NCBI RefSeq assembly: GCF_031769215.1
Contig: NW_026782437.1
Coordinates: 310,001 to 374,000, forward strand
DNA from: Ylistrum balloti
Taxonomy: Eukaryota
Direction of reading: 5' to 3'
DNA: 64,000 nucleotides
Below are positions 55,001 to 58,000 of this stretch, piece by piece (the stretch's first letter is position 1; each line of letters opens with the position of its first letter). Position numbers: made by a program.

Positions 55001-58000
55001 TCAAGAGAAAAAGTACAGAGGTCAGTATGGCAAAGAAACCAAGTCTTCGACGGGACAACACTCTGACACTAGAATCATCAGACGACTCGTCCCCTCTCAG
55101 TTCATCAAGGTCCGCGAGGCGCAGTACCTCAAAATTATCCTCATCTGTCTCCACACTTAAACGGAAAGCGACGCTGGTATCCGAAGGATCCGGAATCTAT
55201 TCATCCGTAGTCGCTCTTAATTCTGGCTCCAGTGTCGGTAAAACAGCGAGTTTGAAATCAGCTTCCCTTGGAAAGGATTGCGATGTCATACAGGTTTCCC
55301 CTTCGCTTTCTAAAAAAGCAAGTGGAAGTAAAACATCAGCAGCAGTTGATACATTACGTAAGTCTGTTTCTGAGTTAAAAGATCTAATGGAGACCACTTC
55401 ATCAGTGAAGAGTTCCTTGTCGAAGAGGAAATCATCTCTCGTGAAAGAACCATCTCTGACGAAAACATCACTTTCCAAACGGAAGTCCAGTATCCCTGAT
55501 GTGAATACCAGCAGCAATTCCACCACAACTCCACAACTCCACCACTACCACCCGGTGGTCTCCTAGAGATCGCCATTTCATTTGATACCACCGGATCTAT
55601 GTACGGCTGTCTAGAGGAAGTTCGTGGAAGAATCAAAGACATGGTTCAACGACTTCAGGCCGATATTCCAGGAATCAGAATAGCAATTATTGCACACGGA
55701 GACTATTATGATGTGCATAATTACATTGTGAAATGGATTGATTTCGGGGCAACTGTTCCAGAGCTATGCGAGTTCGTAGGAACAGTTTCGCGCACCAACG
55801 GTGGAGATTTGGATGAATGTTACGAACTCGTGCTTCGAAGGGCAAGGGAAGTGTTATCATGGACACCAGGAAGCCAACGCTCTCTAGTTGTAATAGGGGA
55901 TGGTGCACCTCATGAAGTTGGGTATTCATATCAGGGCTTTGTAAACGACATAGATTGGCGTGTGGAGGCTCAAGAACTAAACAAAATGGTAATTGTCCTT
56001 TAATAAATGATCAATGATATATAGCCTTTTGTTGTATACTTATATATGTAAATAAAGCATCATGCTTTAGTATGTTGTTAGTACAGTACTTCAGTTTGAA
56101 CATTCTTTATCAAAAAAATTAATGGGTTTAGTTTTGAAGAGCAATCAATGGCTAGTGATATTCTAAATTAAGATATTTAACATATCACTTTTTATTTCAG
56201 GGTGTCAAGATATACAGTGTTTTTGTTGGCGGCTTGCCCATGCATTTTTATAAAGAGATAGCAAATGTGACAGGTGGAAGGCTAATTTCTCTTGCTGGCT
56301 TTGGAGTTCTGTTTGACATTCTGATGTCTATCTGTTACAAGGAAGGTGGATCTGATCTGTTTGAGGTAGGCACATCACTAACACTTTTGTTATAAACATA
56401 TTTACCATTACTGACTAATATACAGAAAATTGTCAAAGTTTTTTCTTTTTTACATTCGCCATTTTCCATAAGGCTCCGGGTCATATCTCGTTAGAAGTTT
56501 ATGATATCTAAATATTGCTATGTATTGTTATTACAAGAAGGTAATACTATCATAACTATTTTACAGGCTTATGAAGCAGAAGTGAGGGAGAGAAACAAAC
56601 ACAAGACAATGGCCACAGCGCTCGAGGGAATGTTTACCTCTCTCGGGAGTAAGAAAAGTAGCTTCGGATTAGCCACAGCATCACACATAGGGACCGGACC
56701 TCCATTGTTCACACCATTTACTTATCCAACGGGAATGGCCGGAATGCTTCCATTGGGAAAACTAATGATCCCCAAGATAAAAACGGCAAAAAAGCAAACT
56801 AAAGCTACAAAAAAGACAAAGGTAAGAATCTAAAAATTGTCGCTACACTAAATGTAAATAAACCATAATGACTATATTTAGGGATACTTGATAAAACAAA
56901 AACAATATGTAGCTTGAGAAAACTTCGGTTTGAAAAACAGTTAGAAAATGTGTTATTTAACAGTTTATGAACGATTTCTATTATCCAAAAAAGGCTCAGA
57001 GAAAGAGTGGAATAATGATTTTAAAACTGTTTTACAGAAAACAAAAAGCAGAAGGTCAGGAGGACGATTTAACAGGGAAAGTCTTACTGACATGGAATTT
57101 ATAAAAGGACCTCTGAAGCGACTGGTGTGGTCAAATTGGATGTTGGGGATTTCCAAAACCCAGTTTGCGAAGGCTGACGGACATGGTATCAACTTGACTC
57201 ACCGCGATTGGTGTGACGCCTTTTGTAACCATGGTATACTTACAGCGGACGATGTGAACGGCGTTCCTGCAGTGTATGAGTTTGCTGTTCGTTTGTCTGG
57301 AAAGAAGAAACTGTACCCAGTGTTCTACAAGGTAACCACAAGAGTACCCAAGGGCAGTCATTGGTTCAACTATCTCCTCTCACAGAAAAAGGTTCGCAAC
57401 GTCATCAAAGATGTGGTGAATACTCACGCTGACGTCATGGTAAGGAAAGGCCAGTTTAAAACGAACAGATCTACATTCATTCAGAAAGTGTCACAGCTGA
57501 TGTTTAACAAGTATGACTACGCATGGGTATGACAAAGAGACAGAAAGATGAAATTCCGGAATCTCAAGCGATGTGGAGTTCGGATTTCCGGCGATTCATA
57601 TTGAGTATCTTTCGCCAGAAAAGAGACCAATTAGATGGCAGCAATTAAAAAGCGTCTACCTGACGTTTTACTTAAAATCATCCGGATCATTTCATATATA
57701 CATCATATTTAAAAAGTCAAGATTTAAGTTTTCTTAAAATATTGATACTATTTTATATTTAATATTTTTCATCATTCATGATAAATGACACACCGCGTAC
57801 TAACTGCTCAGTAAAATTATGGACATCACATAAGGATTTAGCTTACAGAAATTTATCACTTCTGGGCGACAATCATCGTTGTGTTTTAGAATTTTATTAA
57901 TCTTGTTAGAAGTGGAAGTTTGTTTTGTTATGAATACAAAAATCCATTGTTTTCTCGTCATTTAGATCATCATAGATTTTATTTCCTTTGTTAACACGAA

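What the first reader, a model, noticed from the sequence alone, without database searches (positions are those of the whole stretch)
55700..55945. Substitutions in copy C cluster beside the MIDAS loops of the vWA
Seen (C versus B over about 240 bp): six amino-acid changes (GDYC>GDYY, VET>VGT, TCGG>TNGG, GDAD>GDLD, IGDC>IGDG, YNG>YQG; three involve two-nucleotide codon changes) and six synonymous changes, while the kilobases upstream are almost identical. Gene 1 has yet other residues at several of these sites (THGG, IGDS). Established: the GGD-containing loop and the beta4 Asp (IGD) form the MIDAS face with DxSxS. Inference: paralogues differ in ligand specificity at the metal-ion face, as in diversifying recognition proteins. 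Three Cys residues are among those exchanged.
Basis: partly seen in the sequence, partly recalled or inferred. Interest (0 to 1): 0.65.

Follow-up and report, generated by a model that had tools for sequence, protein, structure and literature searches.

The report
Recombination junction in tandem vWA genes
The cluster of differences marks the place where the middle gene of a three-copy tandem array stops being a copy of its downstream neighbour and becomes a copy of its upstream one, so it is a recombination seam rather than a sign that the metal-binding face of the protein is being selected to diversify.

Summary
In detail: between copies B and C, 55698-55946 holds 6 amino-acid changes (9 non-synonymous nucleotide changes, three two-nucleotide codons) and 6 synonymous changes, against 9 differences in the 1736 aligned bases upstream. 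A three-way comparison of the tandem copies A, B and C shows that B is a hybrid: upstream of about 55700 B equals C, and from 55708 on B equals A and C is the odd one, through introns and exons 2-4, where C is 13.7% diverged. Synonymous differences cluster as strongly as non-synonymous ones, and dN/dS in the patch is 0.44, as in exons 2-4 (0.41-0.54). This pattern matches an unequal crossover or gene-conversion mosaic of the anti-Lepore type. Five of the six sites lie in loops on the MIDAS side of a confident vWA model, but that is not more than expected once the patch and family-wide variability are allowed for. B and C share an 8-bp frameshifting duplication ahead of the vWA, and C has a premature stop. 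The genes belong to an uncharacterised scallop vWA family. Selection at the metal face remains possible but is not indicated.

The parts
55698..55946 (+). The patch of the finding (segment II; codons 47-129 of the vWA part of exon 1 of copy C). It holds 14 C-specific sites (55708-55943), 2 A-specific sites and 1 B-specific site.
   Evidence: B-C 6.1%, A-B 1.2%, A-C 6.5%. Sd 6, Nd 9, dS 0.112, dN 0.049, dN/dS 0.44.
53937..55700 (+). Segment I: upstream region and 5' part of exon 1 of C, where B equals C and A is the odd copy.
   Evidence: 1736 aligned bases with 53 A-specific, 8 B-specific and 1 C-specific sites.
55946..56139 (+). Segment III: end of exon 1 and start of intron 1. There is no C-specific site and B groups with C again.
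   Evidence: 194 bases with 3 A-specific, 1 B-specific and 0 C-specific sites. P(0 C-specific sites at the patch rate) = 1.1e-5. Fisher test of segment II against III, p = 0.010.
56140..57650 (+). Segment IV: rest of intron 1, exons 2-4 and their introns of C. A equals B and C is 13.7% diverged, with indels.
   Evidence: 1428 aligned bases with 193 C-specific, 2 A-specific and 2 B-specific sites.
41704..44307 (+). Copy A, the only copy of the array with an unbroken frame. Exons 41704-42693, 42894-43058, 43261-43533, 43738-44307 (stop included).
   Evidence: tblastn with the M. yessoensis orthologue P0004 covers exon 1 in one frame.
48344..50957 (+). Copy B, the hybrid (C-like 5' part, A-like 3' part). 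Exons 48344-49341, 49542-49706, 49909-50181, 50388-50957.
54991..57532 (+). Copy C. Exons 54991-55988, 56201-56365, 56567-56821, 57038-57532 (premature stop included).
55523..55538 (+). Tandem 8-bp duplication (CCACAACT twice) in C. It shifts the frame before the vWA, and the ATG frame then stops at TAG 55564-55566.
   Evidence: In one search, tblastn with P0004 splits exon 1 between frames 1 and 3.
48876..48891 (+). The same 8-bp duplication in B.
   Evidence: In one search, exon 1 is split between frames 2 and 1.
57530..57532 (+). TGA in C where A and B read GGA. It removes the last 24 residues, which A, B and orthologues keep.
44350..47753 (+). Spacer S1 between A and B.
   Evidence: 99.8% identical to S2 (3 mismatches and 2 gap openings in 3404).
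51000..54400 (+). Spacer S2 between B and C.
23948..29755 (+). Gene 1, an older paralogue. Exon pieces matched at 23948-25276, 26081-26248, 27255-28874 and 29243-29755. It is the orthologue of M. yessoensis KP79_PYT11285.
   Evidence: 84-87% identity to P0186 in exons 1, 2 and 4.

Best explanation
The window holds four paralogous genes of a scallop-type vWA family: Gene 1 and a tandem array A-B-C with a period of about 6647 bp. A and C are older duplicates. Their gene bodies are 1.5-14% apart, least at the 5' end, probably because earlier gene conversion homogenised that end. B is a recent hybrid of the anti-Lepore type. Misaligned exchange between C (5' part) and A (3' part) produced A - [C5'/A3'] - C, duplicating the A 3' part, the spacer and the C 5' part. 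The exchange zone lies between about 55600 and 56140. [quoted passage not shown] Mismatch repair of heteroduplex, or a second short conversion tract, would give such a pattern. A B-versus-C comparison is therefore a comparison of near-identical DNA up to about 55700. From 55708 it becomes a comparison of the A lineage with the C lineage. The 'cluster' is simply the first stretch of that older divergence that falls in coding sequence. Within it, replacements sit at the positions that the whole family tolerates changing: the x positions beside the invariant HGDY-x-D, T-x-GGD-x-DE and IGD-x-xPH motifs. What is shown: the mosaic, the equal clustering of silent changes, dN/dS below 1, and the frame lesions. 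What is inferred: the mechanism (unequal crossover with patchy repair rather than separate conversions) and the order of events.
For: Site patterns. Segment I has 53 A-specific sites against 1 C-specific; segments II and IV together have 4 against 207 (Fisher p = 9e-50). A 43070-47353 against B shows 9 mismatches in 4280 aligned bases. Spacers S1 and S2 show 3 mismatches in 3404. B-C divergence is 0.52% in segment I. Silent and replacement differences cluster alike, with odds ratios of 10.0 and 8.8. The N:S ratio of the patch is 9:6, against 58:32 in exons 2-4 (p = 0.78) and 3:2 upstream (p = 1.0). dN/dS is 0.44 in the patch and 0.41, 0.54 and 0.52 in exons 2, 3 and 4. Polarising the 14 C-specific sites of the patch with Gene 1 gives 7 where A/B match it, 4 where C matches it and 3 neither, so both lineages contributed. 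The six sites have mean entropy 1.83 against 0.99 for the 143 columns in 42 homologues from outside the window (955 of 100000 random sets reach this). A second cluster of the same kind exists elsewhere: 6 B-specific substitutions within 41 bp at the start codon. In per-exon trees A, B and C group together, as do the two P. maximus and the two A. irradians paralogues, as expected under concerted evolution or recent duplication (11 of the 42 homologues were used). The hybrid flanked by both parents matches the anti-Lepore HBB/HBD arrangement described in PMC4041002 (passages read).
Against: A single crossover does not explain the return to the B = C pattern in 55946-56139, nor the two A-specific sites inside the patch (55716, 55853), so at least two more switches or later mutations are needed. 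A-C divergence in the patch (6.5%) is higher than in the flanking segments I (3.1%) and III (1.55%). The patch is thus also an island in the A-versus-C comparison, which a pure 'B switches ancestry' account leaves to unequal ages of earlier conversion tracts. At the protein level, 4 of the 6 replacements look derived in C when judged against the pectinid orthologues, and the other 2 are ambiguous. C's residues are rare in the family: G115 0 of 255, G74 2 of 255, Q125 3 of 204, N80 5 of 253, L84 6 of 255. Nine of the 14 differences lie within 3 bp of another one (2248 of 100000 uniform placements reach this). With three sequences the direction of exchange cannot be fixed. A false tandem duplication made by the assembler cannot be excluded.
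Confidence: 0.75

Rival explanations
1. Selection at the metal-ion face. The paralogues have diverged in ligand specificity, and either diversifying selection drove the replacements or selection against homogenisation keeps the patch as an island of divergence between stretches that gene conversion has made alike.
For: Five of the six sites lie in MIDAS-side loops of a confident model, four of them next to invariant motif residues. A-C divergence in the patch (6.5%) exceeds that of both flanks (3.1% and 1.55%); an island kept by selection would also show raised silent divergence, so the equal clustering of silent sites does not exclude this version. Among six pectinid A-type proteins, positions 80 and 125 each show three states, and A/B and C add two more each, although position 80 is Gly in 22 of 29 other molluscs. 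Three replacements need two nucleotide steps.
Against: dN/dS is 0.44, no higher than in the rest of the gene. Loop placement is not beyond expectation within the patch (P = 0.067 unweighted; 14867 of 100000 draws weighted by entropy). In the Gene-1 orthogroup five of the six positions are invariant. B and C cannot make the canonical protein from exon 1 as assembled, and C also has a premature stop. The rest of C (exons 2-4 and introns) is even more diverged, without any link to the MIDAS.
Confidence: 0.1
2. Decay of a pseudogene. Copy C is non-functional, and its unusual residues beside the motifs are neutral changes accumulated under relaxed constraint.
For: C carries a frameshifting 8-bp duplication ahead of the vWA and a TGA that removes 24 conserved C-terminal residues. 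C's residues at the six sites are rare in the family, and it lost Cys50, which 215 of 255 family members have. In the exon-1 vWA tree, the C branch is 0.050 against 0.0075 for A. A P. maximus paralogue (P0155) also reads out of frame at its C-terminus.
Against: This does not explain why the differences from B begin abruptly at 55708, nor why silent sites cluster too. dN/dS is well below 1 in every exon. All indels of C inside exons 2-4 are multiples of three (18 bp and 3 bp), and the splice-site dinucleotides are kept. In exon 2 it is A/B, not C, that is derived (branch 0.269 against about 0). All motif residues are intact in C.
Confidence: 0.1
3. Assembly artefact. Copy B is a false tandem duplication, in which two haplotypes or a misjoin between the similar 5' parts of A and C were laid in tandem. 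The B-versus-C comparison would then be partly allele against allele and partly A against C.
For: The duplicated unit is almost identical throughout: 0.09-0.5%. The junction lies inside the stretch where A and C are most alike. Minisatellites flank the units.
Against: B has its own cluster of 6 substitutions at the start codon, shared with neither A nor C. The patchy junction is what biological exchange gives. No reads were available, so this was not tested.
Confidence: 0.05

Closest known systems
Anti-Lepore type chimeric duplicate (HBB/HBD fusion flanked by HBD and HBB) from unequal crossing-over between tandem paralogues
   Same: A hybrid gene with the 5' part of the downstream parent and the 3' part of the upstream parent sits between both parents. 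The spacer is duplicated. Earlier interparalogue conversion contributes to the mosaic (PMC4041002, passages read).
   Different: The gene family and the animal are different. The junction here is patchy, with at least three switches within about 550 bp, rather than a single breakpoint. The hybrid and its 5' donor carry a frameshift.
vWA / integrin I-type domains with a MIDAS
   Same: The fold matches integrin beta I domains, vWF A3 and BatB (Foldseek E about 4e-8 to 1e-6). The Pfam VWA model passes its cut-off in homologues: P0004 29.1 bits and P0011 35.2 bits, against 23.8. D-x-T-x-S, Thr and Asp are conserved at the expected loop positions.
   Different: The first Ser of DxSxS is Thr. Further invariant residues surround the site (HGDY-x-D, GGD-x-x-E, GD-x-x-PH). 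Nothing in the sequences seen suggests secretion: the N-terminus is Ser-rich and disordered, and Gene 1 has a Lys-rich linker with a sub-threshold AT-hook match. No solved relative was found by sequence.
vWA domains of giant viruses and phages (the source of the database names 'YR811-like' and 'Ariadne-like RING finger')
   Same: Foldseek matches include a crAss-like phage VWFA protein (E 3e-20, 27% identity), a moumouvirus vWA protein and a Megavirus ariadne-like RING finger protein (E about 1e-10). Sequence relatives are fused to ubiquitin, RING, UBC, TerD, PARP or small-GTPase domains.
   Different: The mollusc proteins have none of those partner domains. They have their own conserved C-terminal domain, which has no significant fold match.

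Membership tests
vWA (von Willebrand factor type A) superfamily | Match to the family profile above the curated cut-off | tested here: met
   Full-length homologues pass Pfam PF00092: P0004 29.1, P0011 35.2 and P0008 23.8 bits, against a cut-off of 23.8. The window's exon-1 pieces alone fall just short (21.9 bits for C, 13.8 for A), because exon 1 holds only about three quarters of the domain.
vWA (von Willebrand factor type A) superfamily | Alpha/beta Rossmann-like fold with a central sheet | tested here: met
   In the model of homologue P0156, pLDDT is mostly above 90 over 184-375, with alternating strands and helices. 414 of the 500 counted Foldseek PDB matches have E <= 0.001, led by integrin beta I domains, vWF A3 and BatB.
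vWA (von Willebrand factor type A) superfamily | MIDAS residues DxSxS, Thr and Asp at the C-terminal ends of the strands | tested here: met
   Met as a D-x-T-x-S variant: D9 249 of 249, T11 248 of 249, S13 247 of 249, T79 248 of 255, D114 255 of 255. All are present in A, B, C and Gene 1. Their loop positions were read from the DSSP string of the model. That these residues form the MIDAS is taken from established knowledge of the fold.
vWA (von Willebrand factor type A) superfamily | Binding of a divalent metal ion | not testable with these tools
   This needs biochemistry or a solved structure.
   Pairwise dN/dS in the patch is 0.44 (B-C) and 0.49 (A-C). The site-model test on many sequences could not be run, because no DNA of other scallops was available in the open collections.
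   5 of 6 sites lie in MIDAS-side loops: P = 0.0096 over the whole piece, 0.067 within the patch, and 14867 of 100000 draws when weighted by family entropy. The tool returned no coordinates, so no 3D distances could be computed.
Anti-Lepore type hybrid from unequal crossing-over | Hybrid copy flanked by both parental copies, with the spacer duplicated | tested here: met
   The order is A, B (C-like 5' part, A-like 3' part), C. S1 and S2 are 99.8% identical.
Anti-Lepore type hybrid from unequal crossing-over | One switch of ancestry at a homologous position | tested here: inconclusive
   The main switch is overwhelming (p = 9e-50), but the zone 55708-56139 alternates between patterns c, a and c (segment II against III, p = 0.010). 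That needs patchy repair or a further conversion.

The most novel reading that the evidence does not exclude
The patch is an island of divergence held by selection. Gene conversion keeps the 5' halves of the array alike, but tracts that would erase the paralogue-specific residues next to the MIDAS Thr and Asp (T-x-GGD-x, IGD-x) are rejected. On this reading the tandem copies of this uncharacterised, probably intracellular vWA family recognise different ligands at the metal face, and the frameshifts in B and C are very recent or are bypassed by another first exon.
Probability: 0.08. Interest if true: 0.55.

Novelty: new member of a known kind. Interest (0 to 1): 0.15.

Why it matters
This is a cautionary case. 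In young tandem arrays, a sharp local cluster of amino-acid differences between two copies can be the seam of a hybrid gene rather than a footprint of selection. Comparing all copies, and the silent sites, settles the question. It matters little beyond that. The gene family itself may deserve more attention than the cluster: a vWA domain with an extended invariant motif set and a conserved C-terminal domain without a recognisable fold, present across the molluscs sampled here.

Tried and rejected
(1) Sequence searches of the vWA exon piece, the exon-4 domain and the family profile against PDB chains gave only low-complexity or chance matches.

(2) The ESM Atlas search with exon 4 gave no usable hit.

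Names were instead taken from the listing of the search for homologous proteins.

(4) The literature searches found nothing on this family. 'YR811/R811' returned 432 papers, and the 10 listed were all unrelated. 'von Willebrand factor + scallop + gene expansion + tandem duplication' returned 3 papers, none on this family judging by title and abstract start.

(5) Pfam gave nothing, or only sub-threshold hits, on ORFs downstream of C and upstream of Gene 1.

(6) A donor for C's patch was sought in the window. Only A and B match it, and Gene 1 is 61% identical at the nucleotide level there. No stored homologue carries C's combination of residues.

(7) A small intron that would skip the 8-bp duplication was considered by reading the sequence and rejected. 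No GT...AG pair of plausible length would restore the frame without removing the conserved PPLPPGG stretch. This is my reading, not a computed test.

(8) The exon-3 tree is unreliable because the alignment is low-complexity.

(9) 3D distances from the six sites to the metal site could not be computed, because structure prediction returns no coordinates and /data holds none.

Not checked:
- Genome contigs holds only bacteria and archaea, so it was not used.
- No reads, RNA data or DNA of other scallops were available.
Each exon was translated and searched on its own, and the whole-domain structure came from a database homologue instead.
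Full report
**What the window is.** The window has 33-38% G+C, GT..AG introns and many minisatellites, and holds no N. It carries four paralogous genes on the + strand. Gene 1 spans 23948-29755. Three further copies lie in tandem with a period of about 6647 bp: A (41704-44307), B (48344-50957) and C (54991-57532). Each gene has four phase-0 exons:
- a Ser-rich N-terminus plus about three quarters of a vWA domain;
- the rest of the vWA;
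- a low-complexity Lys/Gly-rich linker;
- a conserved C-terminal domain.

The nearest database proteins are uncharacterised scallop proteins. In the exon-1 vWA part they are Pecten maximus LOC117339194 (92% identity), Mizuhopecten yessoensis LOC110457297 (90%) and Argopecten irradians (89%). Gene 1 is the orthologue of M. yessoensis KP79_PYT11285. None is identical, so the species is another pectinid; I did not try to identify it. Every exon was translated and searched on its own, and whole-protein statements rest on database homologues.

In the vWA frame, B and C differ at piece positions 50, 74, 80, 84, 115 and 125 (C>Y, E>G, C>N, A>L, C>G, N>Q). This takes 9 non-synonymous and 6 synonymous nucleotide differences in codons 47-129 (C 55698-55946). 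Three codons changed at two positions. Gene 1 reads THGG and IGDS. Upstream, B and C differ at 9 of 1736 aligned bases.

**What the cluster is.** Aligning all three copies changes the picture.
- Segment I (53937-55700): A is the odd copy at 53 variable sites, B at 8 and C at 1.
- Segment II, the patch (55701-55945): C is odd at 14 sites, A at 2 and B at 1.
- Segment III (55946-56139): C is odd at none, A at 3 and B at 1.
- Segment IV (56140-57650): C is odd at 193 sites, A at 2 and B at 2.

The switch from 'B equals C' to 'B equals A' has Fisher p = 9e-50. Downstream, A and B stay almost identical through the whole spacer: 9 mismatches in 4280 bases, and spacers S1 and S2 show 3 mismatches in 3404. 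So B is a hybrid with a C-like 5' part and an A-like 3' part, sitting between its two parents. Unequal crossing-over gives exactly this arrangement, as in the anti-Lepore HBB/HBD duplicates (PMC4041002, passages read).

The patch is the first coding stretch of that older divergence. The divergence goes on, more strongly, through intron 1 and exons 2-4. B-C dS is 0.41, 0.19 and 0.10 there, and dN/dS is 0.41, 0.54 and 0.52.

**Silent sites decide between history and selection on the protein.** Synonymous differences are as clustered as non-synonymous ones. Synonymous: 6 of about 58 sites in the patch against 2 of about 176 in the rest of exon 1 (odds ratio 10, p = 0.0034). Non-synonymous: 9 of 191 against 3 of 535 (odds ratio 8.8, p = 0.0005). 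The N:S ratio of the patch (9:6) equals that upstream (3:2) and does not differ from that in exons 2-4 (58:32, p = 0.78). dN/dS in the patch is 0.44 for B-C and 0.49 for A-C. The DNA segment has a different, older genealogy; the protein is not evolving unusually there.

**What the simple model leaves open.**
- The junction is not clean. The return to the 'B equals C' pattern in 55946-56139 is real: there are no C-specific sites in 194 bp (P = 1.1e-5 at the patch rate), and segment II against III gives p = 0.010.
- Two A-specific sites lie inside the patch. Patchy repair of heteroduplex at one crossover, or an extra short conversion tract, is needed. With three sequences I cannot tell which, nor the direction.
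- The patch is also an island in the A-versus-C comparison: 6.5% against 3.1% and 1.55% in the flanks. Unequal ages of earlier conversion tracts would give that. So would selection against conversion at functionally diverged residues, which I keep as the most novel reading.
- Nine of the 14 C-specific differences lie within 3 bp of another one (2248 of 100000 uniform placements reach this). That fits repeated hits at a few free codons, or multinucleotide events. A preprint seen only as title and abstract start in a search listing (10.1101/165969) states that such events mimic positive selection.
- A similar small cluster exists elsewhere. Six B-specific substitutions lie within 41 bp around the start codon (B 48315-48355). 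They turn MPAIK into MPPIK, the state of the P. maximus and M. yessoensis proteins. Short imported tracts therefore seem to be a habit of this array.

**Where the six sites lie.** A model of the A. irradians homologue P0156 (with an alignment of 42 homologues) is confident over the vWA: pLDDT is mostly above 90 for residues 184-375. It matches integrin beta I domains, vWF A3 and BatB in the PDB (E about 4e-8 to 1e-6). It also matches phage and giant-virus vWA proteins. The MIDAS-type residues are near-invariant in the 257 domain hits found among the stored homologues: D9, T11, S13, T79 and D114. So are HGDY-x-D, GGD-x-x-E and GD-x-x-PH.

Sites 50, 80, 84, 115 and 125 lie in the loops after beta2, between alpha2 and alpha3, and after beta4. 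Site 74 is in the last turn of alpha2.

It is not more than expected, however. The probability of 5 or more of 6 sites in these loops is 0.0096 over the whole 143-residue piece, but 0.067 within the patch, the only place where B and C differ in this piece. When sites are drawn in proportion to family variability, 14867 of 100000 draws reach it. The six positions are simply variable positions of the family: mean entropy 1.83 against 0.99 (955 of 100000 random sets). They are the x positions between invariant motif residues. The tool gives no coordinates, so no true 3D distance test was possible.

**Are the copies functional?** B and C share a tandem 8-bp duplication (CCACAACT twice; B 48876-48891, C 55523-55538). 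It shifts the frame 30 bp before the vWA, and the ATG frame ends at TAG 55564-55566. A and all orthologues read PPLPPGG through this point. tblastn with the M. yessoensis protein splits exon 1 into two frames in B and C but not in A. C also has TGA where A and B have GGA, which removes 24 conserved C-terminal residues. C's residues at the six sites are rare in the family: G115 0 of 255, G74 2 of 255, Q125 3 of 204, N80 5 of 253, L84 6 of 255. It also lost Cys50, present in 215 of 255 members.

Against simple decay:
- dN/dS is below 1 in all exons.
- C's exon indels are multiples of three.
- The splice-site dinucleotides and all motif residues are intact.
- In exon 2 it is A/B that is derived.

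So C was constrained for most of its history, and the lesions look recent. Whether another first exon rescues B and C cannot be told without RNA data.

**Comparison with what is known, and novelty.** The mechanism is the textbook one for tandem paralogues: unequal crossover and interparalogue conversion producing chimeric copies and concerted evolution. This is a new instance, not a new kind. The per-exon trees fit. A, B and C group together, as do the two P. maximus and the two A. irradians paralogues (11 of the 42 homologues were used, and the exon-3 tree is unreliable).

The gene family is a member of the vWA superfamily by profile, fold and motif (see the membership table). Its biology is unknown. 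The C-terminal domain gives a confident model (pLDDT 88.4, pTM 0.86), but 0 of the 500 counted PDB matches reach E <= 0.001. The best has E = 0.22, and a GIY-YIG endonuclease sits at rank 6 with E = 0.45.

**Verdict.** The structural placement is right. The inference of diversifying ligand specificity is not supported. The best explanation is a recombination mosaic in a young tandem array (confidence 0.75). Interest is low (0.15).

Noticed in passing
window 55523-55538 and 48876-48891: Copies B and C share a tandem 8-bp duplication (CCACAACT twice) that shifts the reading frame just ahead of the vWA domain. Copy A and the orthologues lack it.
   Followed up: yes
window 57530-57532: Copy C has TGA where A and B have GGA. 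This cuts off the last 24 residues, which are conserved in scallop orthologues.
   Followed up: yes
window 48315-48355 (C equivalent 54962-55002): Six B-specific substitutions lie within 41 bp around the start codon, changing MPAIK to MPPIK, the state of P. maximus and M. yessoensis proteins. It looks like a short tract imported from a copy outside the window.
   Followed up: partly
window 43738-44304 (exon 4 of A; also 50388-50954, 57038-57529, 29243-29755): A conserved C-terminal domain of about 190 residues gives a confident model (pLDDT 88.4, pTM 0.86). It has no Pfam family, no Atlas hit and no significant PDB fold match. A GIY-YIG endonuclease appears only at E 0.45.
   Followed up: partly
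window 42265-42693 and homologues: This vWA subfamily is large: 2257 representative clusters at E <= 0.001. It has extra invariant motifs (HGDY-x-D, GGD-x-x-E, GD-x-x-PH). In other eukaryotes it is fused to ubiquitin, RING, UBC, TerD, PARP, SAM or small-GTPase domains.
   Followed up: partly
window 27255-28874: Exon 3 of Gene 1 is a very long Lys-rich stretch with repeated GRP motifs; the Pfam AT_hook match is sub-threshold (15.6 bits against a cut-off of 17.4). It is far longer than the linker of A, B and C.
   Followed up: partly
protein P0155 (Pecten maximus LOC117339194): Its C-terminus after YKVTTG reads like the out-of-frame translation of exon 4, so a tandem paralogue in another scallop may also be broken or mis-modelled.
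   Followed up: partly
window 36796-38168, 39469-40042, 46288-46840, 52935-53487: G-rich 26-bp minisatellite arrays lie upstream of A and in both spacers, where they could favour misalignment. Other large arrays lie at 12563-13752 (71 bp x 16.6) and 15446-17302 (56/168 bp).
   Followed up: no
window 42894-43058 versus 56201-56365: In exon 2 (the last quarter of the vWA) copies A and B are the derived ones and C keeps the residues of the orthologues: tree branch 0.269 against about 0. B-C dS there is 0.41, the highest in the gene.
   Followed up: partly
window 59414-59776 (-), 60514-60996 (-), 20040-20909 (-): These are open frames in the flanks; the one at 60514-60996 is Cys-rich. They might be transposon remnants, but none has a Pfam match above threshold. 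Homology of C to A and B ends at 57650.
   Followed up: no
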